Shown here in pieces: positions 18,499 to 63,354 of a stretch of DNA of 64,000 nucleotides. The DNA lies in the NCBI GenBank assembly GCA_902520695.1, contig CABYOT010000006.1, positions 5,996-69,995 of the forward strand, read 5' to 3'. Under the pieces are notes generated by a model that saw only the letters and a list, made by a program, of their open reading frames with translations, did no database searches and was not told the origin of the DNA. The translations under genes and the position numbers were made by a program. The stretch's first letter is position 1. Every line of letters starts with the position of its first letter. This stretch comes from an uncultured Pelagibacteraceae bacterium (GTDB taxonomy: Bacteria > Pseudomonadota > Alphaproteobacteria > Pelagibacterales > Pelagibacteraceae).

Positions 18499-18681
18499 TT
18501 ACTCTATAGAATTTTCTTCTCTCATCAGGATTGGTCTGCCATCATGAGCTGTATTAAGTGGTATAATTTTTCCCTTATACTTTGCACATAAAGTAGGTGC
18601 ACTTCTTTTCTCATTGCCCAAGTTTACTTCCAAATCAACAATGATTAATTTAGCATCATCTAATTCTTTTAATATTTTCAT
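18499..18681 (-). CDS. Small hypothetical protein (60 aa)
   Basis: Isolated ORF filling the gap; strong AAAGGA RBS 8 nt before the ATG; protein-like composition. Confidence 0.7.
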   Translation of the reverse strand: MKILKELDDAKLIIVDLEVNLGNEKRSAPTLCAKYKGKIIPLNTAHDGRPILMREENSIE

Positions 18682-18803
18682 GTTATTATTCCTTTCTTTA
18701 ATTAGCTAAGGTGACATTTTCCTTGCTATAATTGATCGTCTTTTTGAATAAAAATCATCACTCATGCTTACTCAGCTACTTTCTAGCGCAAATGTGGTTT
18801 GTA
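18682..18803 (-). ncRNA. Candidate structured cis-regulatory RNA / leader
   Basis: 122-nt gap, about 32% GC by hand count. GCTA-GAAAG-TAGC hairpin; rod pairing TAGCTGAG/CTTAGCTA plus GTGAT.ATTTT/AAAAT.GTCAC; contains a 19-codon ORF. Not tested against covariance models. Confidence 0.35.
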
Positions 18804-50143: not shown

Positions 50144-51184
50144 CTAATGATTTATCGATGAAGAAAAATTCCAAGAACAATCAAAACTTGGTATATAAAC
50201 TCTAGATAATTTAGTATTACCAAAGTTTTTATTAAATATATTTAACCAATTTTCTACTTGCTTTGGTTTTTTATCTTGGCTGCCGACCTGAGCTGTGATT
50301 ACACCTTTTGGCTTTAAAATTCTTGCAAGTGAATTCATATTTTTAGCAGCTAAATCAATACAGTATTGGTCATCATTTAAATCTACATATATCTGATCAT
50401 ATGTGTCATCTTTGACTGATTTAATGCTTTCAAAAGCATCTCCCCAAACACATTTTACTGAATTTTTCTCTGTCGCCTTCTCACCTATTTTGCCAAGATG
50501 CTTATCACATACTTCAACTACTTCAGGGTCTAACTCATACCAATCAATAAAACTAAAATTTTTTGATATGCATTCTCTTGCTACACCACCATCTCCACCG
50601 CCTATAATAGCTGCTTTTTCTTTTCTTGAATTTAATTCAAGTCCTGAATTTACAAAAGTAGAGCTATAAAGATATTCATCTTTTTCTGCTACTTGAATTT
50701 CATTATCTATAAACAAAGCTTTTCCAAATTGCTCTAATTCAAGAATCTCAATATGTTGGCCTACCTTTGACTTAAAATTTTCAAAAACATTATTAACTAC
50801 ATATGATTTTTTTAAACCAGGTGAACTATAATTGTCATGATAGAAATCTATTGTATCTCTACTAAATTCTTTTACAATAATTTGTGAATGTTCTATCTCA
50901 TCTTTAATAACATCTAAAGCAACAGAGGGAGAAATTTTCGCACATGTAAAAAAGTCAAAACTTATAATTCCCTTTTCTGGAAATGTATGAAAACTAATAT
51001 GACTTTCGGCCAACAATGCAACTAAAGTAAACCCTTGTGGCTCAAATTTATATTTAGTAATTTCAAGCACTGTAACCTTCGCTATTTTCGCAATTTTATA
51101 AACTAATTTCTCAAAGAAAACAGGATCGTATTCCTTTTTTGTGCCTATTATATCAAGCGTAATATGTTCTCCTACTTTAGTCAT
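50144..51184 (-). CDS. speD-speE: Fused S-adenosylmethionine decarboxylase (pyruvoyl) - spermidine synthase-like aminopropyltransferase
   Basis: N-terminal FEPQGFT..LLAESHISFHTFPE (E/S autocleavage site), DFFTC; C-terminal FGKALFID, IIGGGDGG, YELDPEV, GDAF. Confidence 0.9.
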   Translation of the reverse strand: MTKVGEHITLDIIGTKKEYDPVFFEKLVYKIAKIAKVTVLEITKYKFEPQGFTLVALLAESHISFHTFPEKGIISFDFFTCAKISPSVALDVIKDEIEHSQIIVKEFSRDTIDFYHDNYSSPGLKKSYVVNNVFENFKSKVGQHIEILELEQFGKALFIDNEIQVAEKDEYLYSSTFVNSGLELNSRKEKAAIIGGGDGGVARECISKNFSFIDWYELDPEVVEVCDKHLGKIGEKATEKNSVKCVWGDAFESIKSVKDDTYDQIYVDLNDDQYCIDLAAKNMNSLARILKPKGVITAQVGSQDKKPKQVENWLNIFNKNFGNTKLSRVYIPSFDCSWNFSSSINH

Positions 51185-51269
51185 ATGAATATTTAATAAC
51201 TTTACTAATTTAATTTTTTGCTTCTTTCAAATAAAAAACTACGATAATAATTTATGTGAGGATATTACT

Positions 51270-53303
51270 TTGAAAAATAATTGGTCAAATACAGAAGCTA
51301 AAAAATATATATCAAAATACAAGAAACTGGGTCATTCTAGGGATATGGCGTTGAGAGTTTATACAACTAGATTACTAGGAAGAAATAGTAAATTGGTTTT
51401 ACATGGAGGTGGTAATACCTCTGTTAAAACTACCATAAAAGATTTAGATGGAAAAAACTATGATGTTTTGTGTGTAAAAGGTAGTGGATGGGATATGGCA
51501 GAAATCGAACCAGAAGGTTTGCCAGCTGTAAAACTAAATCCTCTTTTGGCATTAAAGAATAAAAAAAAATTATCAGATGAAGAAATGGTAGCATATCAAA
51601 AAAGGAATTTAATTAACATTAAATCTCCAAATCCGTCAGTTGAAACTTTTCTTCATGCTTTTTTACCATTTAAGTTTGTTGACCATACGCACTCTGATGC
51701 GATTATGAACGTCACTAACAGACCAAATGGTATTACTTTTTGCAAAAAGATATTTGGCAAAAAAGTAAGTATTATTCCTTATGTAATGCCAGGTTATGGA
51801 TTAGCTCAGAGGATTAAAGAGGTTTACTCAAAAAATCCAAATATAAACTGTCTTATTTTACTTAATCATGGAATTTTCACATTCTCTAACGATGCAAAAG
51901 AGTCATATGATCTAATGATCAAATATGTGAGTGATGCTGAAAAGGCTATAAAAAAATTAAAAAGAAAAAAGATCAAACAAATAAAAAATTTAAATACTAA
52001 AATTACTCCTGCTCAAATAGCACCAATACTTCGAGGACTAACTTCTAATGGTACAAATAAGAAATTTATTCTTACTTTTAGAAATAATAAAATATTGAGG
52101 TATTTTATTGATGGAAAAGAGGTGTCAAGATATTCTACTGAAGGAACCGCAACACCAGATCATGTAATAAGAGTTAAACCCTTTCCTTTAATTATAAAAC
52201 CTAAACCTAAATCCTCAATTAGTGAATTTGAAAAAACTGCAAAAAAAGCATTTATAAATTATAGGAAAAAATATTTGCAATATTTTGAACAAAATCAAAA
52301 AAAGGTGAAAGAAAAAAAGACAATGCTAGATACTTCGCCAAGAGTAATATTAGTACAAAATATTGGTATATTTTGTGTAGGTAACAGTCTTAAGGCTGCA
52401 AATATTGCAGTTGATTTGACAGAGACTAACGCAAGAGTAATTTCATCCGTTGAAGAAACCACTAAGTATAAATTTATAACAAAAAAAGATATTTTTGATG
52501 TTGAATATTGGTCTCTGGAACAAGCAAAATTGAAAAAAGAAAAAAAGGAATTAGAAGGAAGTATTGTTGTTATCACTGGTGCTTTTGGAGGAATAGGAAC
52601 AGCAACATATAAATTATTCAAAAAATATGGCGCAGAAGTAATTTTAATAGACAATAATAAAAAAAAGGTTGATGAAATGAGCAAGAAATTAAATGATCTT
52701 TGCATTTATTGCGATGTAACAAATAAAAAAAGTGTTAAAAATGCATTTAATTTAATTTCATCTCAATTTGGGGGGATAGATATTTTAATATCAAATGCGG
52801 GTACTGCTACAGGAGGTTCTATTGCTGAGGTAAGTGATAAAATTTTAAGAAAAAGTTTTGAAGATAACTTCTTTTCTCATCAATACTGTGCTTCTGAAGC
52901 TACAAGAATTATGAAACTTCAGAAAAATGAAGGATGTTTATTATTTAACATTTCCAAACAATCTGTAAACCCAGGTAAAAATTTTGGACCCTACGGTTTG
53001 CCAAAATCTGCATTATTAAATCTTTGTAAACAATATGCTGTTGATTACGGTTCTTACGGGATAAGATCTAATGGAGTGAATGCAGATAGAATTAGAACCG
53101 GACTCCTAAATGATAAAATGATAAAATCAAGAGCTAAAGCTAGAGATGTTACGACAGAAAATTATATGAAAGGTAATTTACTTTTAAATGAAGTTAAAGC
53201 CGAAGATGTAGCAAAAGCATTCTTTCATCTTTCAATTTCAAAAAAAACCACTGGAGCTATTTTAACAGTTGATGGAGGAAATATCGCTGCATCTTTAAGA
53301 TAA
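51270..53303 (+). CDS. Bifunctional class II aldolase - short-chain dehydrogenase (RhaEW/YuxG-like)
   Basis: GGGNTSVK, PSVETFLH, DHTH, LLNHG (Zn sites); TGAFGGIG, NAG, YGLPK, DGGN; GAGGA RBS. Confidence 0.92.
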   Translation: MKNNWSNTEAKKYISKYKKLGHSRDMALRVYTTRLLGRNSKLVLHGGGNTSVKTTIKDLDGKNYDVLCVKGSGWDMAEIEPEGLPAVKLNPLLALKNKKKLSDEEMVAYQKRNLINIKSPNPSVETFLHAFLPFKFVDHTHSDAIMNVTNRPNGITFCKKIFGKKVSIIPYVMPGYGLAQRIKEVYSKNPNINCLILLNHGIFTFSNDAKESYDLMIKYVSDAEKAIKKLKRKKIKQIKNLNTKITPAQIAPILRGLTSNGTNKKFILTFRNNKILRYFIDGKEVSRYSTEGTATPDHVIRVKPFPLIIKPKPKSSISEFEKTAKKAFINYRKKYLQYFEQNQKKVKEKKTMLDTSPRVILVQNIGIFCVGNSLKAANIAVDLTETNARVISSVEETTKYKFITKKDIFDVEYWSLEQAKLKKEKKELEGSIVVITGAFGGIGTATYKLFKKYGAEVILIDNNKKKVDEMSKKLNDLCIYCDVTNKKSVKNAFNLISSQFGGIDILISNAGTATGGSIAEVSDKILRKSFEDNFFSHQYCASEATRIMKLQKNEGCLLFNISKQSVNPGKNFGPYGLPKSALLNLCKQYAVDYGSYGIRSNGVNADRIRTGLLNDKMIKSRAKARDVTTENYMKGNLLLNEVKAEDVAKAFFHLSISKKTTGAILTVDGGNIAASLR

Positions 53304-53306
53304 TTT

Positions 53307-54092
53307 ATGCCTTTTTATCAACCAAATGAATTACCTAAATTAATGGTAGCTCCAAATGGAGCAAGAAAAGTCAAGAAAGATCATCCTGAAGTGCCCTTAA
53401 CCATCCAAGAAACTGTTGAAGTCGCAAAGAATTGTTTTAAAGCAGGAGCTGGTGCAATACATCTGCATGTCAGGAATGAAAAAGGAGAACACGTTCTTGA
53501 TGCAGGTTTGTATAAAGAAGCTTTAAAGGAATTAGAGTTTAAAGTTCCAAAAATGCATATCCAAGTTACAACAGAGGCAGTTGGAAAATATTCTCCAGAG
53601 GATATGAGAAAACTTGCTTATGATGTTACACCGCCTGGAACATCAATTGGTATAGCTGAGATGATACCCTCAAGAAATCCAACTGATGACGATGTTAAGT
53701 TATATAAATATTTGACAGAAGCTGGGACTAAAATACAACATCTTTTATATAATCCAAATGACATAGATTTATTAGTTAATTTATTGAACAAAGCTAAAAT
53801 TAATGTTGAGGGAGCTTGGTGTCTCTTTGTAATTGGACATTACTCAGGTAAAATTAGTTACCCAGAAAACATTCCAATATTTCTAGAAAAAATGAGAGAG
53901 AATAATATTAATTTAGACTGGGCAATATGTGCTTTTGCGAGAGAAGAAATATCCTGTCTAGAAAAAGCAATAAACTTAGGAGGCAAAATAAGAGTTGGAT
54001 TTGAAAATTCTTTGTATATGCCTAATGGTGAGATTGCACCAAATAACCATTCAAAGATAAAAGCAGTAAATGAAATCTTTAATTTAGCTTAA
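53307..54092 (+). CDS. Beta-keto acid cleavage enzyme family (BKACE/DUF849)
   Basis: VAPNGAR, HPEVPLT, HLHVR (HxH Zn site), RVGFEN. Confidence 0.88.
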   Translation: MPFYQPNELPKLMVAPNGARKVKKDHPEVPLTIQETVEVAKNCFKAGAGAIHLHVRNEKGEHVLDAGLYKEALKELEFKVPKMHIQVTTEAVGKYSPEDMRKLAYDVTPPGTSIGIAEMIPSRNPTDDDVKLYKYLTEAGTKIQHLLYNPNDIDLLVNLLNKAKINVEGAWCLFVIGHYSGKISYPENIPIFLEKMRENNINLDWAICAFAREEISCLEKAINLGGKIRVGFENSLYMPNGEIAPNNHSKIKAVNEIFNLA

Positions 54093-55544
54093 AAATGCAG
54101 AATATTTTTTAAAAAGAAAACTAACATCTTTATTTGATCTTGCTGAAGCTAAAATAAATCTATCAGGTCTTACTAAAATAGCTTTTGAATTAATATTTCT
54201 TAAATATTTTGATACATCGCTTAAATTATTTGCTTTAAATATGATGTAATTTTTTGAGTTTTTAGGCTTTATATCTGAAGATAAAATTATCATTCCTTTT
54301 TTTGAAAAATATTCATCTAGGGTTTTATTATTTTTAAGCTTGAATTGAGGAAAAATTTTTCCTCTATTTCTATCCTTTAGGTTACCTAGGCCTTTTCCTA
54401 GTTTAGGTTTAATTGACTGCATACTTTTAATACCTTTTTTATCAGATTTTATATTGTCTGTTATTTGAATAGACTCAACAGCATTTACAAATTCTCCCAT
54501 CCTCATAGTGGTTTCAATATATTCTTTAACATTTAGAGATCTTTCTGATTGATATGTGTTTAAAAGTGTTTCATCAAATTTATGTCTTATACAGTTAGCA
54601 ATTTTCCATGCCAAATTTGAAGCATCTCTAATCCCAGCACACATTCCTTGACCCATAAATGGTGGCATTAAATGAGCGGCATCACCTGCTATAAAAACTC
54701 TACCTTTTCGCCATTTTCTCGCAATAGCAGATTCAAATGTATAAATTGTTTTTCTCTCAATAATTGCCTCACTTTTATTTAGCCAAGGTTTTAGAAAATT
54801 CCAAATATAATTTTCTGATAACACTTTTTTATCACTATGTTTTTCCTTAATTGCAAATTCCCATCTTCTACGTCTGCCAACATTTCTACAATATGTTGCT
54901 GGTTGTTTTGGATTTGAATATTGAATTGTCCTATCTGGTAAATTATTTTTTTTCTTTTTTAAAATTAAATCAACTACTGCCCATTTTTGAGTAAAACCTA
55001 AATTATCCATTTTTGTTTTCATTTGTTTTCTAGTTATAGAGTTGGCGCCATCACAACCAATTACATATTTTGACCTTACGAGATACTCTTTGTGATTATT
55101 TAAATTTAAATAAGTTATATCGACATGATTTTTTGAATTTTTAATTTTTATTACTTCAGAATTTTGTTCTATTGAGACTTTTTTATAATTTTTTAATTTT
55201 TTTCTAAGTTTTTTTTCTAGGTCTGGTTGATGGAATCTATAACTTGGATACCATCCATTTTCTGTAATTTTTTTTGGTCTTGGCCAATCTAATATCACTT
55301 TATCCTTAGAATTAACGAATTTAGTGCCTTTATTAATTATAGTGTGTTTCAAAAATTCTTTTGTAATTCCTATTGTTTGAAATACTCTCATTATTTCGTC
55401 ATCAAAATGAACCGCTCTAGGTAGTGGATAAAAACTTTTTTCTCTATCAAGAATTAATATTGAAAAGTCATGCATTGCCAGAAGGTTTGCTAAAGTTCCT
55501 CCCGCAGGTCCTAATCCTACTATTGTGACATCAAATTTTTTCAT
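54084..55544 (-). CDS. Group A FAD-dependent phenolic monooxygenase (MhpA/OhpB-like)
   Basis: IVGLGPAG, PRAVHFDDE, FHQPDLE, GCDGANS, RWEF, AGDAAHLMPPFMGQGMCAGIRDA.NLAWK, LVRPDRFI. Confidence 0.9.
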   Translation of the reverse strand: MKKFDVTIVGLGPAGGTLANLLAMHDFSILILDREKSFYPLPRAVHFDDEIMRVFQTIGITKEFLKHTIINKGTKFVNSKDKVILDWPRPKKITENGWYPSYRFHQPDLEKKLRKKLKNYKKVSIEQNSEVIKIKNSKNHVDITYLNLNNHKEYLVRSKYVIGCDGANSITRKQMKTKMDNLGFTQKWAVVDLILKKKKNNLPDRTIQYSNPKQPATYCRNVGRRRRWEFAIKEKHSDKKVLSENYIWNFLKPWLNKSEAIIERKTIYTFESAIARKWRKGRVFIAGDAAHLMPPFMGQGMCAGIRDASNLAWKIANCIRHKFDETLLNTYQSERSLNVKEYIETTMRMGEFVNAVESIQITDNIKSDKKGIKSMQSIKPKLGKGLGNLKDRNRGKIFPQFKLKNNKTLDEYFSKKGMIILSSDIKPKNSKNYIIFKANNLSDVSKYLRNINSKAILVRPDRFILASARSNKDVSFLFKKYSAFLS

Positions 55545-55562
55545 TGATATTTTTAAAAATTA

Positions 55563-56531
55563 TTATTTTTTTAATTTTGAATATAACCAAGGACAATCAA
55601 TTAACAATGGAGCTTGTTTTCCTTGAGAAGCAGTTTCGAGTCTTTTATTTCTAAATTTCATTCTCTCATCATCAGGTAAATAAAGTCTCTCGTGCCCCCA
55701 GAAACTTGGCCCCTCAAATGTTTCAATTGGCTCCCATGTATCTGGATTAATAATCCTCCCACCCCATCCATTTTCAATAAAAAATCCTGAGGGTGTAATT
55801 GAGTAAAATGAAGTCATATAATCATTGGTATGCCGTCCCATTGTATATGCAATTGCATCATCCTTGTATTGTAATAAGTCATAACCTTGACCTACATCGT
55901 CTAAGTTATTGTATTCAACCATAAAATGATGGAAACCGGTTCTACCTGAACCAAATAAAGCTAAACTATGATGCCTACCATTAACATGAAAAAAGCATAA
56001 AGATATTGGAGTATGACTATAATCACTTATCTTGAAACCCATAATGTCTCTGTAAAAGGGAATTAAATCGTCGATATTTTTAACATGTACAACTGCATGC
56101 CCCATCCCTAGTGCCCCAGTCTTAAATCCTGAAATTGGTCTACCTGGTTTAAAAGGATCTGTGTCTAACATAGGCTTATACACTAATTCAATACGATTTC
56201 CTTGTGGGTCATTAAAATATATTAAATCCTCAACAAAACGTTTGTCAGCAAAAGAAGTCTTACCATGATTTACTACTATTTTATTTTCTTCTAATTTATT
56301 TGCAAAGGTTTGAAGATCTTCCTTAGTCTCAACTTCCCATCCTAAAAATCCTAATCCATCTCCTTTATCACCTGTTATTGTTAACCTTTGTTTTTGGTCA
56401 TCCATTCTAAAAGATAGAATTTCTTTTCCACGGTCTATCTGTTGCATACCGAGGTATTTTTGAGAATACTCTGACCAATCTTCAAATTTATCTGAATTAA
56501 CTCCAATATAACTTAAAGCTTTCACTGCCAT
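55563..56531 (-). CDS. Type I (VOC) Fe(II) extradiol ring-cleavage dioxygenase (BphC/DntD-like)
   Basis: LSYIG, RMDDQ, DPQGNRIE; metal and catalytic residues GMGH, RHHS, HHFMVE, GRHTND, SFY, TPSGFFIENG. Confidence 0.92.
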   Translation of the reverse strand: MAVKALSYIGVNSDKFEDWSEYSQKYLGMQQIDRGKEILSFRMDDQKQRLTITGDKGDGLGFLGWEVETKEDLQTFANKLEENKIVVNHGKTSFADKRFVEDLIYFNDPQGNRIELVYKPMLDTDPFKPGRPISGFKTGALGMGHAVVHVKNIDDLIPFYRDIMGFKISDYSHTPISLCFFHVNGRHHSLALFGSGRTGFHHFMVEYNNLDDVGQGYDLLQYKDDAIAYTMGRHTNDYMTSFYSITPSGFFIENGWGGRIINPDTWEPIETFEGPSFWGHERLYLPDDERMKFRNKRLETASQGKQAPLLIDCPWLYSKLKK

Positions 56532-56556
56532 TTTATTATTATACTTAATTTTGAAA

Positions 56557-56582
56557 GAGCCCGCTATGAAATTAGCGGGCTC
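56557..56582 (-). terminator. GC-rich stem-loop after the aromatic-cluster dctP
   Basis: GAGCCCGCTA/TAGCGGGCTC 10-bp stem with a 6-nt loop, followed by only TTTC on the minus strand. Confidence 0.7.
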
Positions 56583-56593
56583 GAATTTAATTA

Positions 56594-57607
56594 TTAACCG
56601 TCTATTTTAGAAATTACTTCTCTTGCTCTTTTTAATACAGCATCTCCATCAAGACCTTTGCCTTTCATTTCTGCTAACCAGTCTGATTCGATTGGAGCTA
56701 ATATTTTTTTATATTCAGCTAAAACAGAGTCTGATGCAACAGTTATTTCGTGTCCTGGAGTGTTTTCTACTTGAACTCTCATCTTGGCATTCTGAGTATC
56801 AATTAAATTAGATGCCCAATCGCCAAACCATTGACCTGAATGTTTATCAACACAACCTTTAGCTGCTGAAGAAAGACCGTTATATTTCCCTTCATTCATT
56901 ATTAATCCAAAAGTAGCATTAGTGATGTTAACTTCTGTATGGTATTTAGTAACATCAAATAATCTAAATGAACCAATTGCTGTGTATGGGAAAGGCGTTC
57001 CATCAATAACACCTTTATTTAAGGCTTCTGAAGTTCCTGGTGCTGGTACTTTAACCCCAGTTGCTCCTAAAGTTTTAAGAATAGTTCCAGCTATTTTGCT
57101 TGGAACTCTCATTTTTTTTCCTTTAAAGTCTGCAGGCTTAACTACTTTTGTATCTTTCATATGGATTTGGTATCCAGGATTTGAATGAAGTCCTATTAGC
57201 TTAATTCCTGCCATTTCTTTATCAAGGTAACCTTCTTCAAAAAGAGTATTTAAAGCTCTAGATCCAGCTTTTGAAGTTTTGGTCAAGAATGGCAGTTCTA
57301 CAACTGAACTTAAAGGAAATTGACCACCAATATATCCAAGAACTGTCCAAGATATATCTGCAACTCCTGAAGTTACTATATCGTATTGTTTGGGAGGACT
57401 TCCTAGCACTCCTCCTGCATACATTTTTACGTTTAAAGCACCATTTGAACATTTATTAACTTTATCTGCCCAAGCGGCTAAAATCTTACTTGCTATAAAT
57501 GCTTTTGGTGGTTCAAAAGTTGCTAACTTTAATTCTGTAGCTGATGCTGTACTAATAATGCTTAAGGAAAAAATTCCTATAACAAAACCAATTATTTTTT
57601 TTTTCAT
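56594..57607 (-). CDS. dctP: TRAP substrate-binding protein DctP (candidate aromatic acid/phenolic binding)
   Basis: Signal peptide, YAGGVLG, FPLSSVVELPF, KMRVP, EALNKGVIDG; GAGGGG RBS. Confidence 0.9.
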   Translation of the reverse strand: MKKKIIGFVIGIFSLSIISTASATELKLATFEPPKAFIASKILAAWADKVNKCSNGALNVKMYAGGVLGSPPKQYDIVTSGVADISWTVLGYIGGQFPLSSVVELPFLTKTSKAGSRALNTLFEEGYLDKEMAGIKLIGLHSNPGYQIHMKDTKVVKPADFKGKKMRVPSKIAGTILKTLGATGVKVPAPGTSEALNKGVIDGTPFPYTAIGSFRLFDVTKYHTEVNITNATFGLIMNEGKYNGLSSAAKGCVDKHSGQWFGDWASNLIDTQNAKMRVQVENTPGHEITVASDSVLAEYKKILAPIESDWLAEMKGKGLDGDAVLKRAREVISKIDG

Positions 57608-57658
57608 ATTAATCCCCTCTTAATTATTAAATAATTATTAGAAAGTTTAACTTGAAAA

Positions 57659-58510
57659 TTAGATTATTTCATCCTTAATTGTATTAGATAAAGTGCCAAT
57701 TTCTGTGATTTCTATTTCAACATTATCTCCAGGCTTCATGAATATTGGAGGATTTCTTTTAAACCCTACACCTCCAGGCGTACCAGTGACTAATACATCC
57801 CCAGCTCTCCAAGCCATAGCTTTAGAAACATACGAAATTAAAATTGGAATATCGAAAATAAGTTGACTTAATTTTGCGTTTTGCATGACTTCACCATTTA
57901 ATCTTGTTTCAATTGTTAAATTTTTATAATCATTAATGTCTTCAGCTAAAACCATATGTGGACCAAAACTCCCTGTTTTTTCAAAGTTTTTACCCATCCC
58001 AAATTGTCTAGTATGTCGCTGCCACTCTCTTACAGTGCTTTCATTATAACATGAATAACCAATTATATGCTTTAAGGCATCCTCAGGTTTTATGTGTTTG
58101 CCACCTTCATCCATAATTACTGCCATCTCACCTTCAAAATCTAAACTTTGTGAAACAACAGGTCTTTGAATCGGCTGTAAGTGTGCAGTTTGACTTTCTG
58201 GAAATCGATGAAAAATTACCGGGTTCTCTTCAACTGTTCTGTTGGTTTCTTTAACATGTTCACTATAATTTAAACCAACACAAATAATTTTTCCAGGATT
58301 TGGAATTAATGGCAAATATTCAATATCTGAATCATTAATATTGCCTGGATTATTTGTTGCATAGGATTTTGCTTCTTCAATTCCTTGGTTTTGAATTAAA
58401 TCTTTAAGCGTATTAGAATTAGATACTTTTCCAGTTAGATCTGTAATTTTATTATTATTTATAATACCGAACTTATTTTGTTTATTATGTTTAAAAGAAA
58501 TAAACTTCAT
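57659..58510 (-). CDS. Fumarylacetoacetate hydrolase family protein
   Basis: KIICVGLNY..H, LDFEGE, GYSCYNE, GKNF, FGP, VTGTPGGVG. Confidence 0.93.
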   Translation of the reverse strand: MKFISFKHNKQNKFGIINNNKITDLTGKVSNSNTLKDLIQNQGIEEAKSYATNNPGNINDSDIEYLPLIPNPGKIICVGLNYSEHVKETNRTVEENPVIFHRFPESQTAHLQPIQRPVVSQSLDFEGEMAVIMDEGGKHIKPEDALKHIIGYSCYNESTVREWQRHTRQFGMGKNFEKTGSFGPHMVLAEDINDYKNLTIETRLNGEVMQNAKLSQLIFDIPILISYVSKAMAWRAGDVLVTGTPGGVGFKRNPPIFMKPGDNVEIEITEIGTLSNTIKDEII

Positions 58511-58528
58511 GATTAATACTTTCTATTT

Positions 58529-58570
58529 TTGAAACTACTTATATGTTAATGTTTAAATAATTTGAAGCAA
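58529..58570. promoter_or_regulatory. Overlapping divergent promoters of the aromatic cluster
   Basis: Plus strand TTGAAA-17-TTTAAA (58529-58557); minus strand TTGCTT-16-TAACAT (58570-58543). Confidence 0.4.
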
Positions 58571-58577
58571 CATTTTT

Positions 58578-59069
58578 ATGATTTCTAAAGTCAGTAAAGT
58601 TTTTGATTATTCAGCGATAGCTTCAGGTATTGTTTTGTTTTTATTAGCTGTATTAACTTTTTGTGATGTATTTGGAAGAAGGTTTTTAAATTCACCAGTT
58701 ACAGGCACAATAGAGTTAGTTGAAATAGGAATGGCATTAGTAGCTTTCCTTGCAATGCCGAGAGCGTTTTATTTAAATGCAAATGTTTCAGCAGATTTTA
58801 TAAATAATTTAAATTTGGGTACATTTAAAACCTATTTGGTAATTTTAAAATTTTTTTTAATGATATCGATTATGTCCTTAATGGCATACTCTACTACTTT
58901 GACATCATACAAATTTATGAACAATCAAAGAGTAACGATTGATCTAGAGCTTTATTTTTATCCTTTTTATTTTATATGCTCAATTGGGATGTGGTTAAGT
59001 GTTTTTGCTATAATCATATGGTTTATCAAAACTATTTTTATAATTAATTCAAAAGCTGAGAATTTGTAA
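58578..59069 (+). CDS. dctQ: TRAP transporter small permease DctQ
   Basis: TFCDVFGRRFLNSPVTGTIELVE motif; 4 TM helices. Confidence 0.9.
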   Translation: MISKVSKVFDYSAIASGIVLFLLAVLTFCDVFGRRFLNSPVTGTIELVEIGMALVAFLAMPRAFYLNANVSADFINNLNLGTFKTYLVILKFFLMISIMSLMAYSTTLTSYKFMNNQRVTIDLELYFYPFYFICSIGMWLSVFAIIIWFIKTIFIINSKAENL

Positions 59070-60379
59070 TGGGATTAGAGGCTGTGATTAATGGTGGATT
59101 GTCTTTTGCTGCTGTATTGATTTTGATGGTATTAAACGTACCAATAGGAATTGCAATGTTGGTTGTTGGTTTTACTGGCTTTGCAATGATTTCAGGATTT
59201 GACCCTGCAATATTTGTTTTGGGAACTGCTCCTTTTGATGCTGTCTCAAAATATACATTATCAGTGTTGCCTTTATTTGTTCTAATGGGAAATCTTGCCA
59301 ACAGTTCAAATTTATCAAGAAATTTATACGATGCAGCTTATGCAATAGTTGGCCATTACAAAGGTGGTTTAGCGATGTCTACTGTAGGCGCATGCGCTGG
59401 ATTTGGAATGATTTGTGGATCATCGATTGCAACAGCTGCAACAATGTCTCAAATGGCAGGCCCTGAAATGAGAAGACATGGTTACAGTGATGCCCTAATA
59501 AGCGGATCTATTGCATCTGGTGGAACGCTTGGAATCATAATTCCTCCGAGTGTAATTTTAGTAATATATGCTTATTTAACAGAACAGTCTGTTCAAGAAT
59601 TATTTTTTGCTGCACTAATACCAGGAATAATAGCAGTGGTACTGTATATGATTGCTATTAGGATTTATCTTTTAATTTATCCCTCACAAGGTGGTTATGG
59701 AACAAAAATGCCTTTGAAGGAAAGAATTTCTGCATTATCAAAAGTTTTTCCAATTTTTTTAATATTTGCAATCATGATGGGTGGACTTTATTTAGGTTTT
59801 TTTACAGCAACAGAAAGTGCTGCAGTAGGTGTAATTTTAGTTTTAATTTTTATTTTTTTTAGAGGTCAATTAAAATTAAGTTTATTGAAAGATGCTTTAT
59901 GGGCCACTATAAAAACTGTTGGTTCTTTATATTTAATTGTTATTGGTGCAAGTATATTTAACTATCTTATAACTGTCACACAATTACCTTTTGCGGTTGT
60001 TGATTTTATAAATTATCTTGAGCTTACTCCATTAGGAATAATTTTAGTAATTTGTGCAATTTATTTAGTTCTTGGCACTGTAATGGACTCTTTGGCAATG
60101 TTATTTTTAACTATTCCAGTTTTTTACCCAGTAATTATTGATGCTGGAATTGATCCTGTTTGGTTTGGTATATTTGCAGTAATAGTTGTTGAATTTGGAT
60201 TGATTTCACCTCCTGTTGGAATGAATTTATTCGTTATCAAAGGTGTAATGCAAAAAACACCTTTGCAAACTATATGGTTTGGCACTCTTCCATTCTTAAT
60301 GACTGACGTAATTAGGCTTGCTTTAATTATTGCTTTTCCTGCAATTTGTTTATATTTGCCTAGTCTGATGGCTCACTAG
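59069..60379 (+). CDS. dctM: TRAP transporter large permease DctM
   Basis: LPLFVLMG, ICGSSIAT, SGGTLGIIIPPS, ISPPVGMN. Confidence 0.95.
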   Translation: MGLEAVINGGLSFAAVLILMVLNVPIGIAMLVVGFTGFAMISGFDPAIFVLGTAPFDAVSKYTLSVLPLFVLMGNLANSSNLSRNLYDAAYAIVGHYKGGLAMSTVGACAGFGMICGSSIATAATMSQMAGPEMRRHGYSDALISGSIASGGTLGIIIPPSVILVIYAYLTEQSVQELFFAALIPGIIAVVLYMIAIRIYLLIYPSQGGYGTKMPLKERISALSKVFPIFLIFAIMMGGLYLGFFTATESAAVGVILVLIFIFFRGQLKLSLLKDALWATIKTVGSLYLIVIGASIFNYLITVTQLPFAVVDFINYLELTPLGIILVICAIYLVLGTVMDSLAMLFLTIPVFYPVIIDAGIDPVWFGIFAVIVVEFGLISPPVGMNLFVIKGVMQKTPLQTIWFGTLPFLMTDVIRLALIIAFPAICLYLPSLMAH

Positions 60380-60698
60380 TATCTTTTATTTTTTTTATAT
60401 AATTAAAATAAATTAAGCCAAAAACTGCACCTACAATCATTAAAATATATTGATAAAATTTTAATAATACAAACACTATTGGTAATTCTTTACCTGGATT
60501 CCGAGCATAAAAATTATCTGTACCATCTTTATATAAATCCATTGGACCTAAAGTTGCATATAAACCAAAGATAAATATATAAATACAGGGCAATAAAGAA
60601 ATAATTAATAAAATTCTATTTCCGCGAATTAATTTTATTAAATTTGCAGATACTCCTACTGAAACTAGACAAATTAGCGACAATATTAAAGGGTTCAT
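60360..60698 (-). CDS. Hypothetical membrane protein
   Basis: Three hydrophobic segments; TAATG coupling to the sulfatase stop codon. Confidence 0.6.
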   Translation of the reverse strand: MNPLILSLICLVSVGVSANLIKLIRGNRILLIISLLPCIYIFIFGLYATLGPMDLYKDGTDNFYARNPGKELPIVFVLLKFYQYILMIVGAVFGLIYFNYIKKIKDTSEPSD

Positions 60699-62281
60699 TA
60701 CCAAACTCCTATCATAATTCCATCATCTTTTGTATAATCTCTTTCTTTTAAAACAAATTCATCTGTTGCTGCAACCCTATTTTTTCTATTTGTAATTCTT
60801 TGAAGCAATATATCCTTCATTTCATCAATAATTTTTTTATGATCTGATGATTGTCCTAAATCATTGAATTCATCTGGATCATTTTTTAAATCAAATAATT
60901 GAGGTGGGAAACCTTTGTAATAAATATACTTCCATCTATCATTTCTTATCATATATGCTCTTGCATCTGATGCTCCAATATTAAGAATTTTTCTTGCTTC
61001 ATTAAATGAATAATCTATTTCACTAAACACACTGTTTTTCCAATTAGGGACTTTATTTCCTCTTATAATTGGTAGCAATGATTGACCCTCAAGACGATGT
61101 TTACTTACTTTACTATCTACAAAGTCTAAAAAAGTTGGAAGCAGATCAATAGCCTCTACAAATATTTTTTCTCTTACTCCCCTATTATTATCTGACAAAT
61201 TACTTGGATCATAAATTATCATTGGAACTTTAACAATTTGTTCATGAAAAAGCTCTTTTTCTCCTAGCCAATGATCGCCCTGATAGTCACCATGATCTGA
61301 TGTAAAAACTATCATTGTATTCTTCATATAATTTTTTTCTTCAAGAAAATTAAATAGTCTCCCAAGATTATCATCTATTTGTTTTATCAATCCCATGTAT
61401 CCTGAAAGAACAGTGTTTCTCACTTCTTCTCTTGAAAAAGTCTTTGAAATATTATTTTCCATGAAAGCTTTGTAGACTGGATGATCTATTTCTTTTTCAG
61501 CATTACTTCGATGAACTGGGTAAAATTGATTTGAGGAGTACATATTATGATAAGGTGCAGGAGCAATGTATGGCCAATGAGGTTTAATATATGATAAATG
61601 TAAAAACCAAGGCTTTTCTCCACTTTCCTGAATAAACTCCATTGATCTATTTGTCATAAATGCAGTTTCGGAATGTTCTTCTTTAACTCTTGCTGGTTTA
61701 TTTGAATTTCTTAACCTCCATCCACTCAAAATATTTCCACTTTCATCCTCTGATGAATTTGCCCAACTATCCCAAGGATTATCACCCTCATATCCAAGTT
61801 TATTTAGCCACTCATTGAAAGATAATTTTTTGTTTGAGTTTTTAATATGGTTATTTGGGTGAAGACCATCATCTCTTTCATAAGGCTCAAAACCTGGTTC
61901 ACTAACCGTCAAACCAATTTCTGTATCTTTTGAAATTCCAAGTCTATTCATTCCATCTGTATCGGGTCTCATATGTGTTTTGCCTACAACACCAGTCCTA
62001 ATTCCAGATTGCCTTAAATAATCTCCAATTGTTAGTTCACCGATTGGCAAAGGTATTTGGTTCCAAGTTGATCCATGACTAAATACTGTTCTTCCAGTAT
62101 AATAGGACGCTCTTGATGGGCCACAAACAGGGGCTTGGACATAAGCAGACTCAAACAAAACTCCTTTTTTTGCTAAACCGTCTATGTGAGGTGTTTTAAG
62201 GTGTGGATGACCATAACAAGAAAGATAATCAAATCTTAGTTGATCAGCCATTATAAATAAAATATTTTTAACTTTATTCAT
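60698..62281 (-). CDS. Formylglycine-type sulfatase/phosphonate monoester hydrolase family, cytoplasmic (arylsulfatase-like)
   Basis: NILFIMADQLR, CGPSR (CxPxR signature), GKTH, KPHWPY, SDHGD, EKE; no signal peptide. Confidence 0.9.
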   Translation of the reverse strand: MNKVKNILFIMADQLRFDYLSCYGHPHLKTPHIDGLAKKGVLFESAYVQAPVCGPSRASYYTGRTVFSHGSTWNQIPLPIGELTIGDYLRQSGIRTGVVGKTHMRPDTDGMNRLGISKDTEIGLTVSEPGFEPYERDDGLHPNNHIKNSNKKLSFNEWLNKLGYEGDNPWDSWANSSEDESGNILSGWRLRNSNKPARVKEEHSETAFMTNRSMEFIQESGEKPWFLHLSYIKPHWPYIAPAPYHNMYSSNQFYPVHRSNAEKEIDHPVYKAFMENNISKTFSREEVRNTVLSGYMGLIKQIDDNLGRLFNFLEEKNYMKNTMIVFTSDHGDYQGDHWLGEKELFHEQIVKVPMIIYDPSNLSDNNRGVREKIFVEAIDLLPTFLDFVDSKVSKHRLEGQSLLPIIRGNKVPNWKNSVFSEIDYSFNEARKILNIGASDARAYMIRNDRWKYIYYKGFPPQLFDLKNDPDEFNDLGQSSDHKKIIDEMKDILLQRITNRKNRVAATDEFVLKERDYTKDDGIMIGVW

Positions 62282-63354
62282 TATCTATTAAACATTTGTT
62301 TTAAACCGACAGTAGATGCCTGGCATATACCTTTTTCAGTAATTAAACCTGTTACATATTTTGCTGGAGTTATATCAAATGCTAAATTCATCGATTTACT
62401 ATTTTCAGGATAGATTAAAACTTTCTTAATATTATTTTTATCGTCTTTTCCCTCTATATGGGATAGTTCTTCAGAGTTTCTTTCTTCAATAGGTATCTTA
62501 TTATAATCTTTAGTTTCCCAATCAATTGTGGAGCTTGGTAAAGCCACATAAAAGGGCACATTATTATCATGTGCTGCTAATGCTTTCAAATATGTACCAA
62601 TTTTATTGCATACATCTCCAGTTGATAGAGTTCTATCTGTTCCAACAATGCACATATCAACCTCTCCTCTTTGCATTAAAATACCACCAGTATTATCTGT
62701 AATAATTGTATTTGGTATACCCTCTTCATTTAATTCAAACGAAGTTAGATTTGCCCCTTGATTTCTTGGTCTTGTTTCATCGACCCATACATGAATTGGT
62801 ATTCCTTTTTTATGTGCTTGATAAATTGGTGAGGTTGCTGTCCCCCAATCTATAGTTGCTAACCACCCTGCATTACAGTGAGTTAAGATATTAACAGTTT
62901 TATTATTTTTATTATAAATTTCTTCAATTATTTTTAGTCCATTAAATCCTATATTCTCACAAAATTTTACGTCCTCATCACATATTAATTTTGCTTCTTT
63001 TAATGCTACATCCAATAATTCATCAGGCTTCACAAATGATAATTTATTATTCATTCTATGAATTGCCCATTGTAAGTTTATAGCTGTTGGTCTTGAATTA
63101 ACTAATTCTTCTGAACTTTTTTTAATGAAATCTAAATTTTTATTTTCTTGTATTGCCAATACTATTCCATAAGCAGCAGCTCCACCAATAAGAGGTGCCC
63201 CTCTTACCTCCATAGTTTTTATTGCTTTTACTGCATCTTTTATTGTATTTAAATCTTTAATGACAAACTGATGTGGAAGTTTGGTTTGATCAATTATTTT
63301 TACTACATTATTTTCATACCAAATTGTTCTATATTTTTTTCCCTTTATTTTCAT
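62281..63354 (-). CDS. mtnA: S-methyl-5-thioribose-1-phosphate isomerase
   Basis: IDQTKLP, VRGAPLIG, RPTAINL, LTHCNAGWLAT, DETRPRNQG, VGTDR, NKIGTY. Confidence 0.95.
   Translation of the reverse strand: MKIKGKKYRTIWYENNVVKIIDQTKLPHQFVIKDLNTIKDAVKAIKTMEVRGAPLIGGAAAYGIVLAIQENKNLDFIKKSSEELVNSRPTAINLQWAIHRMNNKLSFVKPDELLDVALKEAKLICDEDVKFCENIGFNGLKIIEEIYNKNNKTVNILTHCNAGWLATIDWGTATSPIYQAHKKGIPIHVWVDETRPRNQGANLTSFELNEEGIPNTIITDNTGGILMQRGEVDMCIVGTDRTLSTGDVCNKIGTYLKALAAHDNNVPFYVALPSSTIDWETKDYNKIPIEERNSEELSHIEGKDDKNNIKKVLIYPENSKSMNLAFDITPAKYVTGLITEKGICQASTVGLKQMFNR

What the first reader, a model, noticed from the sequence alone, without database searches (positions are those of the whole stretch)
51270..53303. 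Aldolase-dehydrogenase fusion as a one-protein DHAP shunt for MTA/5'-deoxyadenosine salvage
The protein resembles RhaEW (rhamnulose-1-P aldolase/lactaldehyde dehydrogenase), but no rhamnose isomerase, kinase or sugar transporter is in the window. It is divergent from the MTA-producing speD-E, and mtnA is 9 kb away. In the established DHAP shunt, MtnA makes (methylthio- or 5-deoxy-)ribulose-1-P and a class II aldolase splits it to DHAP plus (methylthio)acetaldehyde. The fused SDR could convert that aldehyde to methylthioethanol or methylthioacetate. This matters because SAR11 depends on reduced sulfur.
Basis: inference. Interest (0 to 1): 0.62.

Follow-up and report, generated by a model that had tools for sequence, protein, structure and literature searches.

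The report
Fused aldolase-dehydrogenase replacing DHAP-shunt aldolase
This SAR11 (Pelagibacter) genome carries a two-enzyme fusion protein, usually mislabelled as a rhamnose gene, in place of the small aldolase that sister genomes use to break down the S-adenosylmethionine by-products methylthioadenosine and 5'-deoxyadenosine, so it probably finishes that route and also handles the reactive aldehyde, a step with no assigned enzyme so far.

Summary
Bases 51270-53303(+) encode a 677-aa class II aldolase + SDR fusion. It is divergent from a speD-speE fusion, and mtnA lies 9 kb away.

The protein passes NCBIfam NF006192 (891 bits, cut-off 639) and fails the RhaEW equivalog TIGR02632 (440 vs 568). 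The genome (91% complete) has mtnP and mtnA. I found no MtnB/C/D, MtnK, RuBisCO-like protein, RhaA, RhaI or rhamnulokinase, and no other suitable aldolase.

Decisive evidence:
- **Pelagibacterales (121 genomes):** all 51 with mtnA carry either a 210-aa FucA-like aldolase (Ald2 type, 41) or this fusion (10), never both. The 70 without mtnA carry neither.
- **Position:** the fusion occupies the Ald2 slot between mtnA and speDE. In the other nine fusion genomes it abuts mtnA.
- **This window:** a 9-kb accessory island has been inserted between the two genes.
- **Alphaproteobacteria:** mtnP-(apt)-mtnA-fusion or mtnK-mtnA-fusion operons recur, in 20 of about 36 loci in a one-per-genus sample.

Most likely the fusion cleaves (methylthio/5-deoxy)ribulose-1-P and then oxidises or reduces the aldehyde. 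No assay exists, and the SDR direction is unknown.

I found no paper describing this. The same scan has met this pairing in at least 40 other genomes. I class it as a new variant of a known pathway.

The parts
51270..53303 (+). Gene for the 677-aa class II aldolase / short-chain dehydrogenase fusion (NF006192 subfamily). It is the proposed MTRu-1-P / 5-deoxyribulose-1-P aldolase plus aldehyde-processing enzyme.
   Evidence: ORF and translation. NF006192 scores 891 bits against a cut-off of 639; TIGR02632 RhaEW scores 440 against 567.75. AlphaFold model has pLDDT 90.4 and pTM 0.88.
51357..51926 (+). Aldolase_II domain (aa 30-219). Metal ligands are His139, His141 and His200. The catalytic residue is Glu125. 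The phosphate-binding motifs are GGGNTS (46-51) and S72-G73.
   Evidence: Pfam PF00596, 85 bits. Motif positions. These residues are invariant or nearly so in 22 homologues. The best PDB match is 3m4r, the N-terminal aldolase domain of the Thermoplasma homologue, with TM 0.93.
51927..52562 (+). Structured middle region (aa 220-431) with no Pfam family. It is conserved in the whole fusion family, for example PDH at 296-298 and EYWSLEQ at 412-418.
   Evidence: No Pfam hit. Folded with high confidence in the model. Conserved columns.
52563..53279 (+). Classical SDR domain (aa 432-670). It carries TGAFGGIG (436-443), Asp461 at the end of strand beta-2 (NAD(H) type), NAG (509-511), and the catalytic residues Ser562, Tyr575 and Lys579.
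   Evidence: Pfam PF13561 and PF00106. Motif positions. Asp461 is invariant. Structural matches are NAD-dependent SDRs.
50144..51184 (-). SpeD-SpeE fusion (AdoMet decarboxylase + aminopropyltransferase). It produces MTA and is divergent from the aldolase-SDR gene, with an 85-bp spacer.
   Evidence: Pfam AdoMet_dc + Spermine_synth; NCBIfam speE and SAM_DCase. It is a conserved neighbour of the Ald2/fusion slot in all SAR11 loci examined.
53304..62280 (.). Variable 9.0-kb block that separates the fusion from mtnA in this lineage only. It holds BKACE, an MhpA-like monooxygenase, an extradiol dioxygenase, TRAP transporter genes, an FAH hydrolase, a small membrane ORF and a sulfatase. It is not part of the MTA route.
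   Evidence: Gene content. The block is absent from fusion-bearing relatives, where the fusion and mtnA are 7-45 bp apart. The island-bearing rows form one derived clade.
62281..63354 (-). mtnA, S-methyl-5-thioribose-1-phosphate isomerase. It supplies the ketose-1-phosphate substrate.
   Evidence: TIGR00512 scores 416 bits against a cut-off of 279.
63355..63999 (-). PhyH-family dioxygenase ORF lying between mtnP and mtnA on the minus strand; it runs off the window. mtnP follows at G000:C6:70276-70995(-), about 280 bp beyond the window end.
   Evidence: Pfam PhyH, 80 bits. MTAP TIGR01694 scores 307 bits, over its cut-off.

Best explanation

Proposed steps:
1. SpeDE and other SAM users release MTA (established knowledge of these families).
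2. MtnP phosphorolyses MTA to adenine plus methylthioribose-1-P. The gene is shown present.
3. MtnA isomerises this to methylthioribulose-1-P. The gene is shown present.
4. The N-terminal metal-dependent class II aldolase domain (His139, His141, His200, Glu125) performs the retro-aldol cleavage to DHAP plus 2-(methylthio)acetaldehyde, or acetaldehyde when the substrate is 5-deoxyribulose-1-P. This is inferred. The fusion replaces the FucA-like Ald2 in the same genomic slot, and no other candidate exists in the genome.
5. The C-terminal NAD(H)-type SDR domain (Asp461, Ser562, Tyr575, Lys579) converts the aldehyde at once. This is inferred. By analogy with RhaW, which oxidises lactaldehyde with NAD+ and is inactive with NADH, oxidation to (methylthio)acetate or acetate is somewhat more likely than reduction to 2-(methylthio)ethanol or ethanol, about 60:40.

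In this lineage a 9-kb accessory island has been inserted between the fusion gene and mtnA, which hides the linkage.
For: **Family assignment.** The protein passes the NF006192 cut-off and fails the RhaEW equivalogs TIGR02632 and NF006189. In a tree, the six RhaEW-type rows split from all 130 other fusions with 100% support.

**Own genome (90.9% complete).**
- mtnP and mtnA are present.
- No MtnB-type protein was found. The only other class II aldolase is a PRK07490-type gene in a CitE/BKACE/carnitine-dehydrogenase cluster.
- Not found: ARD, MtnC, RuBisCO-like protein, MtnK, Ald2, RhaA and RhaI.
- The single FGGY kinase is GlpK.

**Pelagibacterales sample, 121 genomes.**
- mtnA is present in 51. 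Ald2-like aldolase is present in 41 and the fusion in 10. There is no overlap, and the 70 genomes without mtnA have neither.
- In family f2, only 3 of 60 genomes have mtnA, and they are exactly the 3 with the fusion.

**Position.**
- Fusion-less SAR11 genomes have mtnP-mtnA-ald2-speDE. The 210-aa aldolase is FucA-like (215 bits) and scores only 62 bits against MtnB.
- Fusion-bearing SAR11 genomes have mtnP-mtnA, then the fusion on the opposite strand, then speDE.
- f2 genomes have a tight co-directional mtnP-mtnA-fusion operon.
- In all 9 other fusion genomes of the sample the two genes are about 30-45 bp apart.

**Beyond SAR11.**
- Of 68 alphaproteobacterial loci at 44-53% identity, 31 have mtnP and/or mtnA directly upstream on the same strand.
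- Seven rhizobial loci have mtnA 5-7 kb downstream. In the one annotated (L098, Mesorhizobium ciceri) mtnK precedes mtnA and the cluster also holds a sugar ABC transporter and a SorC regulator.
- In a sample of 201 genomes, about one per genus, 20 of about 36 informative non-RhaEW loci are preceded by mtnP/apt/mtnA/mtnK.
- mtnA is present in 36 of 40 fusion genomes against 57 of 160 others (Fisher p = 2e-10).
- None of the 4 RhaEW-only genomes has mtnA.

**Catalytic residues.** The catalytic and cofactor residues of both domains are intact and conserved.

**RhaEW precedent.** It shows that this architecture couples ketose-1-P cleavage to NAD+-dependent aldehyde oxidation (PMC3870299).

**Literature gap.** A 2026 review states that the enzyme acting on 2-methylthioacetaldehyde is unknown (PMC13474568).
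Against: - No enzyme assay or genetics exists for any member of this subfamily. Everything rests on gene context and phyletic pattern.
- Related genomes are not independent, so the p-values overstate the case.
- About 16 of 36 alphaproteobacterial loci show no mtn gene within 9-10 kb.
- Four of 40 fusion genomes lack a detectable mtnA, including one complete 1.4-Mb genome, G150.
- In this window the gene is not next to mtnA. It is followed after 3 nt by a BKACE gene with no terminator, so here it may be co-transcribed with unrelated genes.
- The aldolase domain is only 22% identical to SAR11 Ald2 over 100 residues, so equal substrate specificity cannot be read from the sequence.
- MtnB dehydratases share the same fold and metal site, so aldol cleavage versus dehydration is not decided by motifs.
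- The direction and substrate of the SDR step are unknown.
- Two key DHAP-shunt papers (North 2017 PNAS and North 2020 Mol Microbiol) could not be read.
Confidence: 0.72

Rival explanations
1. It is an ordinary RhaEW: L-rhamnulose-1-phosphate aldolase fused to L-lactaldehyde dehydrogenase, used for rhamnose catabolism, as JGI annotation suggests.
For: It has the same two-domain architecture and full-length homology at about 27-30% identity to RhaEW-type proteins. JGI names close homologues 'rhamnose utilization protein RhaD'.
Against: It scores 440 bits against the TIGR02632 cut-off of 567.75 and 416 bits against the NF006189 cut-off of 634. It belongs to a separate clade with 100% support. 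There are 60 clade-discriminating columns, including the catalytic Glu125, which is Asp in RhaEW. No RhaA, RhaI or rhamnulokinase was found in the genome. RhaEW orthologues are reported always to lie in rha loci (PMC3870299), whereas this subfamily lies with mtn genes.
Confidence: 0.03
2. The fusion works with the BKACE gene 3 nt downstream and the adjacent aromatic ring-cleavage island. For example, the SDR domain would make a beta-keto acid that BKACE cleaves.
For: There is a 3-nt spacer and no terminator between the two genes. The same pair is found in close relatives L006, L023 and L024. Pairing a dehydrogenase with BKACE is a known logic, as with carnitine dehydrogenase + BKACE (from my own knowledge).
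Against: BKACE and the island are present only in one derived sub-clade (window, L006, L023, L024). All other fusion-bearing SAR11 and alphaproteobacterial loci lack them and have mtnA there instead. Other SAR11 genomes carry different cargo in the same slot: 1.7 kb in L034, and in L026 a 5.2-kb insert with PALP, DUF1015 and a 2-hydroxyacid dehydrogenase. BKACE does not co-occur with the fusion elsewhere.
Confidence: 0.04
3. It serves only 5'-deoxyadenosine / 5-deoxyribose disposal (radical-SAM by-product, DrdA-like). It would yield DHAP plus acetaldehyde, then acetate. It would have little role in MTA or sulfur metabolism.
For: DHAP-shunt enzymes are known to take both substrates (PMC6079011; PMC13474568). 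In contig L007 a radical SAM/SPASM gene lies directly upstream of the fusion. Acetaldehyde to acetate gives clean carbon recovery. Rhizobial clusters look catabolic, with an ABC sugar transporter, mtnK and an acyl-CoA synthetase.
Against: In SAR11 the gene is sandwiched between the MTA producer speDE and mtnP-mtnA. It replaces Ald2 in genomes that have no other MTA route, so MTA-derived MTRu-1-P must go somewhere. Sequence cannot separate the two substrates.
Confidence: 0.12
4. The aldolase-fold domain acts as an MtnB-like dehydratase, or another non-aldolase class II enzyme, and the SDR reduces or oxidises the product. This would give a new methionine-regenerating route and not a DHAP shunt.
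For: MtnB, AraD epimerase and OtnC decarboxylase share this fold and metal site (NCBIfam hits). The genome has two MetY-type sulfhydrylases, and SAR11 needs reduced sulfur.
Against: No MtnC, MtnD, MtnW or RLP was found to continue a dehydratase route. The protein it replaces is FucA/Ald2-like and not MtnB-like. Its only characterised homologue, RhaEW, is an aldolase.
Confidence: 0.06

Closest known systems
DHAP shunt for MTA and 5'-deoxyadenosine: MtnP (or MtnN+MtnK), MtnA, Ald2/DrdA (EC 4.1.2.62). Studied in Rhodospirillum rubrum, Rhodopseudomonas palustris, E. coli ATCC 25922 and Bacillus thuringiensis (PMC5893883, PMC10986504, PMC6079011, PMC13474568).
   Same: The same upstream genes, mtnP and mtnA, are present. 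The canonical MtnB/C/D are missing, as in shunt-only organisms. A class II aldolase-fold enzyme sits in the same operon or slot. Most SAR11 genomes carry the classical mtnP-mtnA-ald2 form.
   Different: The roughly 210-aa FucA-like Ald2 is absent. It is replaced by a distantly related aldolase domain (22% identity over 100 aa) fused to about 200 aa of unknown function and an SDR. The aldehyde-processing step is unassigned in the model organisms ('precise enzyme is unknown') and here would be built into the same polypeptide.
RhaEW (YuxG of Bacillus subtilis, Caur_2283 of Chloroflexus aurantiacus): L-rhamnulose-1-P aldolase / L-lactaldehyde dehydrogenase; TIGR02632 (PMC3870299).
   Same: Same three-part architecture and full-length homology. 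Metal ligands, the phosphate-binding loop, the SDR catalytic triad and the NAD-type Asp are conserved. It is the only characterised relative. It shows that aldol cleavage is coupled to NAD+-dependent oxidation of the released aldehyde.
   Different: The window protein scores below the equivalog cut-off and lies in a separate clade. Sixty conserved columns differ, including the catalytic Glu/Asp and many SDR pocket positions. The genomic partners are mtn genes and not rha genes. There is no rhamnose pathway in this genome.
PDB 3m4r: N-terminal class II aldolase domain of a conserved Thermoplasma acidophilum protein (structural genomics, function unassigned).
   Same: 40% identity and TM-score 0.93 to residues 24-229 of the model. 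It is the aldolase domain of a homologous fusion protein.
   Different: Only the first domain was solved and no ligand or function was assigned. No full-length structure of any aldolase-SDR fusion was found in the PDB.

Membership tests
NCBIfam NF006192 (PRK08324.1-6, bifunctional aldolase/short-chain dehydrogenase) | Whole-protein score above the curated cut-off of 639 bits, aligned end to end | tested here: met
   891.3 bits, residues 2-677 against profile positions 2-685. Relatives in mtn operons also pass: L098 1157, L044 1039, L070 1082, L013 801 bits.
RhaEW / TIGR02632 (rhamnulose-1-P aldolase / lactaldehyde dehydrogenase) | Score above the equivalog cut-off (567.75 bits) | tested here: not met
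   440.3 bits. In 201 Alphaproteobacteria the scores are bimodal: 676-1095 bits for true RhaEW against 293-521 bits for the rest.
RhaEW / TIGR02632 | Encoded within a rha locus, with rhamnose isomerase and rhamnulokinase present in the genome | tested here: not met
   No RhaA and no RhaI. The only FGGY kinase is GlpK. The neighbours are speDE, an amino-acid ABC transporter and, in relatives, mtnA. The genome is 90.9% complete.
RhaEW / TIGR02632 | Architecture of Aldolase_II domain + middle region + SDR domain | tested here: met
   Pfam domains at 30-219 and 432-670. Full-length alignment to all PRK08324 models.
Class II (metal-dependent) aldolase/adducin superfamily, PF00596 | Three His metal ligands, an acidic catalytic residue and a phosphate-binding Gly/Ser-rich loop | tested here: met
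   H139, H141, H200, E125, GGGNTS 46-51 and S72-G73 are present and invariant or over 90% conserved. H139/H141 and H200 align with the His residues of SAR11 Ald2.
Classical SDR (PF00106 / PF13561) | TGxxxGxG cofactor motif, NAG, and the Ser-Tyr-Lys triad, with an acidic residue after strand beta-2 for NAD(H) | tested here: met
   TGAFGGIG 436-443, D461, NAG 509-511, S562, Y575 and K579. The NAD preference is inferred from the motif and has not been measured.
DHAP shunt (as a system) | MTA phosphorylase (or nucleosidase + MtnK) and MtnA present | tested here: met
   MtnP scores 307 bits at G000:C6:70276-70995. MtnA scores 416 bits at window 62281-63354.
DHAP shunt (as a system) | Stand-alone FucA-like Ald2/DrdA aldolase (EC 4.1.2.62) | tested here: not met
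   No match to SAR11 Ald2 in the own genome. There are only three PF00596 hits: two are the fusion itself and one is a PRK07490-type gene elsewhere. This is the feature that the fusion is proposed to replace.
DHAP shunt (as a system) | Cleavage of MTRu-1-P / 5-dRu-1-P to DHAP plus an aldehyde | not testable with these tools
   This needs an enzyme assay. It is supported only by slot replacement, mutual exclusivity with Ald2 and operon context.
Canonical methionine salvage (MtnB/C/D) | MtnB dehydratase, MtnC enolase-phosphatase (or MtnW/X) and MtnD dioxygenase | tested here: not met
   The best TIGR03328 (mtnB) score in the genome's stand-alone aldolase is 39 bits. No ARD, no TIGR01691 and no RuBisCO-like protein were found. 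The genome is 90.9% complete.

The most novel reading that the evidence does not exclude
The SDR domain is the long-missing enzyme that acts on 2-(methylthio)acetaldehyde. Unlike the reductive step assumed for purple bacteria, it would oxidise the aldehyde with NAD+ to (methylthio)acetate, and acetaldehyde to acetate. This would define an oxidative, energy-yielding branch of the DHAP shunt used by about a fifth of alphaproteobacterial genera and a tenth of SAR11 species. It would create a previously unconsidered organosulfur acid in seawater, or a substrate for a CoA ligase as in the rhizobial clusters.
Probability: 0.35. Interest if true: 0.72.

Novelty: new variant of a known kind. Interest (0 to 1): 0.62.

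Why it matters
**Scope of the problem.** MTA and 5'-deoxyadenosine are unavoidable and inhibitory by-products of SAM chemistry in every cell. The DHAP shunt is the commonest bacterial way to remove them, yet its step after the aldolase has no assigned enzyme (PMC13474568).

**What the fusion would add.**
- It would name a candidate for that step.
- It would correct a widespread 'rhamnose utilisation' mis-annotation.
- It would assign a role to a protein family present in roughly 19% of sampled alphaproteobacterial genera.

**Relevance to SAR11.** SAR11 cannot reduce sulfate. It therefore matters for ocean sulfur and carbon budgets whether the methylthio group ends up as methylthioacetate, as methylthioethanol or back in methionine.

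**A ready comparison.** Ald2-type and fusion-type genomes coexist within one genus. This offers a natural experiment to test what the fused dehydrogenase adds.

Tried and rejected
- **BKACE as functional partner:** rejected, because BKACE belongs to a lineage-specific island.
- **Riboswitch or other RNA element near the genes:** no Rfam match at gathering threshold in 40000-64000.
- **Promoter and terminator scan of 50900-54300:** nothing above chance and no terminator after the fusion.
- **Full-length structural homologue:** none in the PDB, only single-domain matches. I could not read the model coordinates, so I did not measure the distance between the two active sites.
- **Literature:** searches for an aldolase-SDR fusion in MTA metabolism, for PRK08324 and for SAR11 methionine salvage found no description. 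The SAR11 nitrogen-limitation and polyamine papers do not mention the gene. North et al. 2017 (PNAS) and 2020 (Mol Microbiol) are not held, so I cannot exclude that they mention it. I could not establish whether R. palustris Ald2 (RPA4655) is itself a fusion.
- **Recurrent downstream ORFs in high-GC relatives (444 aa and 333 aa):** no family hit, and they may be spurious.
- **Acyl-CoA synthetase as a hint for an acid product:** it occurs only in one rhizobial group, which is too narrow to count.
Full report
**1. Observation**

The ORF at 51270-53303(+) is real. It encodes 677 aa from a TTG start with a GAGGA box upstream. Pfam places a class II aldolase domain at residues 30-219 and a short-chain dehydrogenase domain at 432-670. 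The NCBIfam profile for bifunctional aldolase/SDR proteins aligns from residue 2 to the last residue, so the start and the fusion are genuine.

Close homologues of exactly 677 aa are abundant in Candidatus Pelagibacter assemblies, which also confirms the SAR11 origin.
- a divergent AdoMet-decarboxylase/spermidine-synthase fusion at 50144-51184(-);
- mtnA at 62281-63354(-), 9.0 kb away;
- mtnP about 280 bp beyond the window end, at G000:C6:70276-70995.

**2. What family it is**

The protein passes the curated cut-off of NF006192, PRK08324.1-6 (891 bits against 639). It fails both rhamnose-specific equivalogs: TIGR02632 at 440 against 567.75, and NF006189 at 416 against 634.

In 201 Alphaproteobacteria sampled at about one per genus, scores against the RhaEW model are bimodal. 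Seven genomes score 676-1095 bits. Forty others, and the window's own genome, have a fusion scoring 293-521 bits. A FastTree phylogeny of 136 fusion proteins separates the six RhaEW-type rows from all others with 100% local support and long branches.

Sixty alignment columns are conserved within each clade but differ between them. They include:
- the catalytic acid, which is Glu125 here and Asp in RhaEW;
- the loop that carries it, Pro-Asn-Pro 120-122;
- Trp74, next to the phosphate-binding Ser-Gly;
- a dense set of SDR pocket positions at 533-538 and 564-578, plus Arg607, Arg609 and Arg625.

Both active sites therefore look retuned and not decayed. The metal ligands (H139, H141, H200), the GGGNTS and SG phosphate motifs, the TGxxxGIG and NAG motifs, the NAD-type Asp461 and the Ser562-Tyr575-Lys579 triad are all present and conserved.

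An AlphaFold model built on 22 homologues is confident (pLDDT 90.4, pTM 0.88). It shows that residues 220-431 are folded and are not a floppy linker. The PDB holds only the isolated aldolase domain of a Thermoplasma homologue (3m4r) and generic SDRs, with no full-length relative.

**3.

The assembly is 1.27 Mb in 28 contigs and 90.9% complete.

Present:
- MtnP and MtnA;
- two MetY-type O-acetylhomoserine sulfhydrylases.

Not found:
- ARD/MtnD, MtnC, MtnK and a RuBisCO-like protein;
- RhaA and RhaI.

The single FGGY kinase is glycerol kinase. Apart from the fusion, the only class II aldolase-fold gene is a PRK07490-type protein beside a CitE-like lyase, a BKACE and carnitine-dehydrogenase genes on another contig. 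It scores 39 bits on the MtnB model.

Methylthioribulose-1-P made by MtnA therefore has no known consumer in this genome other than the fusion. There is also no source of rhamnulose-1-P.

**4. The decisive comparison inside SAR11**

I searched the same 121 Pelagibacterales genomes three times.
- mtnA is present in 51.
- The fusion is present in 10, including this genome.
- A 210-aa aldolase taken from a fusion-less relative is present in 41.

The 41 and the 10 do not overlap. Together they are exactly the 51 mtnA-positive genomes, and none of the 70 mtnA-negative genomes has either. In the second family of the order, only 3 of 60 genomes have mtnA, and they are the three with the fusion.

The 210-aa protein is FucA-like (215 bits on PRK08087) and not MtnB-like (62 bits). 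That matches the Ald2 type of the published DHAP shunt.

Locus maps show three arrangements:
- fusion-less genomes have mtnP-mtnA-ald2 followed by speDE;
- fusion-bearing Pelagibacter genomes have mtnP-mtnA, then the fusion convergent with mtnA and divergent from speDE;
- the other family has a tight co-directional mtnP-mtnA-fusion operon, confirmed by family scores.

In all nine other fusion genomes of the sample the fusion and mtnA are about 30-45 bp apart. The fusion is thus an in-situ replacement of Ald2. The two aldolase domains share only 22% identity over 100 residues, so this is displacement by a distant superfamily member and not a domain accretion onto Ald2.

**5. Why mtnA is 9 kb away here**

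The window and three close relatives (L006, L023, L024) carry nine extra genes between the fusion's stop codon and mtnA's stop codon. These genes are BKACE, an MhpA-like monooxygenase, an extradiol dioxygenase, TRAP transporter genes, an FAH hydrolase, a small membrane ORF and a sulfatase. They span 53304-62280.

These four rows form one clade nested among rows with directly adjacent mtnA, so the block is a derived insertion. The same slot holds other cargo in other SAR11 genomes:
- 1.7 kb in L034;
- in L026, a 5.2-kb block with a PLP enzyme, DUF1015 and a 2-hydroxyacid dehydrogenase. L029 begins with a similar PLP enzyme and a 400-aa ORF, which was not scanned.

An earlier agent of this scan independently read 54084-60379 as an accessory aromatic-acid island (e1-5278622), which fits.

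BKACE starts 3 nt after the fusion's stop codon and no terminator intervenes. Read-through transcription is therefore likely here. The pairing is nevertheless lineage-specific and I do not consider it functional.

**6. Beyond SAR11**

A scan of one genome per GTDB species returned 68 non-SAR11 loci at 44-53% identity, almost all alphaproteobacterial.
- In 31 of them, mtnP and/or mtnA lie directly upstream on the same strand, often with an adenine phosphoribosyltransferase between them.
- Seven rhizobial loci have mtnA 5-7 kb downstream. The one annotated in full, L098 (Mesorhizobium ciceri), has mtnK (497 bits) directly upstream of mtnA (424 bits). Its cluster also holds a sugar ABC transporter, a SorC regulator, an acyl-CoA synthetase and the fusion (1157 bits on NF006192).

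The one-per-genus class sample is not biased towards my query's relatives. In it, 20 of about 36 informative non-RhaEW loci are preceded by mtnP/apt/mtnA or mtnK-mtnA. mtnA is present in 36 of 40 fusion genomes against 57 of 160 others (Fisher p = 2e-10, with the caveat of shared ancestry). None of the four RhaEW-only genomes has mtnA. mtn-linked rows are spread over the whole non-RhaEW clade, so the association is a property of the subfamily and not of one lineage.

**7. Mechanism and what remains inferred**

*Shown:* the gene content, the slot replacement, the mutual exclusivity with Ald2, the operon context and the intact catalytic residues.

*Inferred:* that the aldolase domain cleaves methylthioribulose-1-P and 5-deoxyribulose-1-P to DHAP plus an aldehyde, and that the SDR domain acts on that aldehyde.

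The only characterised relative, RhaEW, oxidises the released lactaldehyde with NAD+. It is inactive with NADH, and it needs NAD+ for net cleavage (PMC3870299). The invariant Asp461 also argues for NAD(H). I therefore lean towards oxidation to (methylthio)acetate or acetate, at about 60:40, over reduction to the alcohol seen in purple bacteria.

A 2026 review states that the enzyme acting on 2-methylthioacetaldehyde is still unknown (PMC13474568). Whether sulfur returns to methionine is open. The genome has MetY paralogues that could use methanethiol, but no known enzyme releases it from either product.

**8. Weak points**

- No biochemistry exists for this subfamily.
- About 16 of 36 loci outside SAR11 show no mtn neighbour.
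- Four fusion genomes lack mtnA, one of them complete (G150).
- Motifs cannot separate an aldolase from an MtnB-like dehydratase.
- Two central DHAP-shunt papers could not be read.

**9. Novelty and earlier scan results**

No paper in the searchable library links an aldolase-SDR fusion to MTA metabolism.

This scan has met the same pairing on other DNA at least 40 times. Earlier agents reached the same reading, also without finding a publication. My tests were run independently on this genome and agree with theirs.

Specific to this window are the lineage-specific island that masks the linkage, and the clean Ald2-or-fusion partition measured on 121 genomes. I rate it a new variant of a known pathway, supported by strong comparative evidence and awaiting an assay.

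Noticed in passing
window 53307-54092 (+): A BKACE (beta-keto acid cleavage enzyme) gene starts 3 nt after the fusion's stop codon, and no terminator-like site lies between them. It is probably co-transcribed here, although it belongs to the inserted island and is absent from most fusion-bearing genomes.
   Followed up: partly
window 60360-60704 (-); L026:16925-17263 (-); L034:3618-3956 (-): A small hydrophobic ORF of 112-114 aa with no Pfam or NCBIfam family. The window and L026 copies are 56% identical. An ORF of the same size sits in the same position downstream of mtnA in L034 (not compared). In the window a sulfatase gene lies between it and mtnA.
   Followed up: partly
Slot between the fusion and mtnA: window 53304-62280; L026:12035-17259; L034:3410-5097; L029:8862-11743: The junction between the fusion and mtnA is a hypervariable slot in SAR11. 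It is 7-45 bp in most genomes, 1.7 kb in L034 and 9 kb (aromatic island) here. In L026 it is 5.2 kb and carries a PLP enzyme, DUF1015 and a 2-hydroxyacid dehydrogenase; L029 begins with a similar PLP enzyme.
   Followed up: partly
G000:C5:20964-24506 (L001): The genome's only other class II aldolase-fold gene (PRK07490 type, 241 aa) sits beside a CitE/RipC-like CoA-ester lyase, a BKACE and L-carnitine dehydrogenase-like genes. This is an unassigned cluster unrelated to MTA.
   Followed up: no
L098 (Mesorhizobium ciceri LMG 14989) 7112-19232, and L083, L091, L093, L101, L102: The rhizobial version of the cluster is acyl-CoA synthetase | SorC regulator - fusion | sugar ABC transporter | mtnK-mtnA. 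It looks like an uptake and catabolic route for methylthioribose or 5-deoxyribose. The CoA ligase would fit an acid product of the SDR step.
   Followed up: partly
L116, L122, L125, L126, L135, L137 and SAR11 loci L025-L034: An adenine phosphoribosyltransferase gene (Pribosyltran, about 175 aa) is often inserted between mtnP and mtnA or lies next to them. The operon therefore also recycles the adenine released by MtnP.
   Followed up: no
window 63355-63999 (-), continuing beyond the window: A PhyH-family Fe(II)/2-oxoglutarate dioxygenase lies between mtnP and mtnA on the same strand in this genome. In relative L011 that position holds a 311-aa ORF with only weak alpha/beta-hydrolase hits. The function is unknown.
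   Followed up: no
G000:C1:133827-137281: Two O-acetylhomoserine/O-acetylserine sulfhydrylase (MetY-type) genes, both over the TIGR01326 cut-off, lie about 1 kb apart. They are relevant to methanethiol assimilation.
   Followed up: no
L007:6940-7938 (+): In a metagenomic contig whose fusion is 63% identical to the window's, a radical SAM/SPASM gene lies directly upstream of the fusion. Such enzymes produce 5'-deoxyadenosine.
   Followed up: no
G150:C1:213676-215616 (L148): A complete 1.4-Mb alphaproteobacterial genome carries a fusion of this subfamily (48% identity) but has no detectable mtnA. This exception to the association may point to a second role.
   Followed up: no
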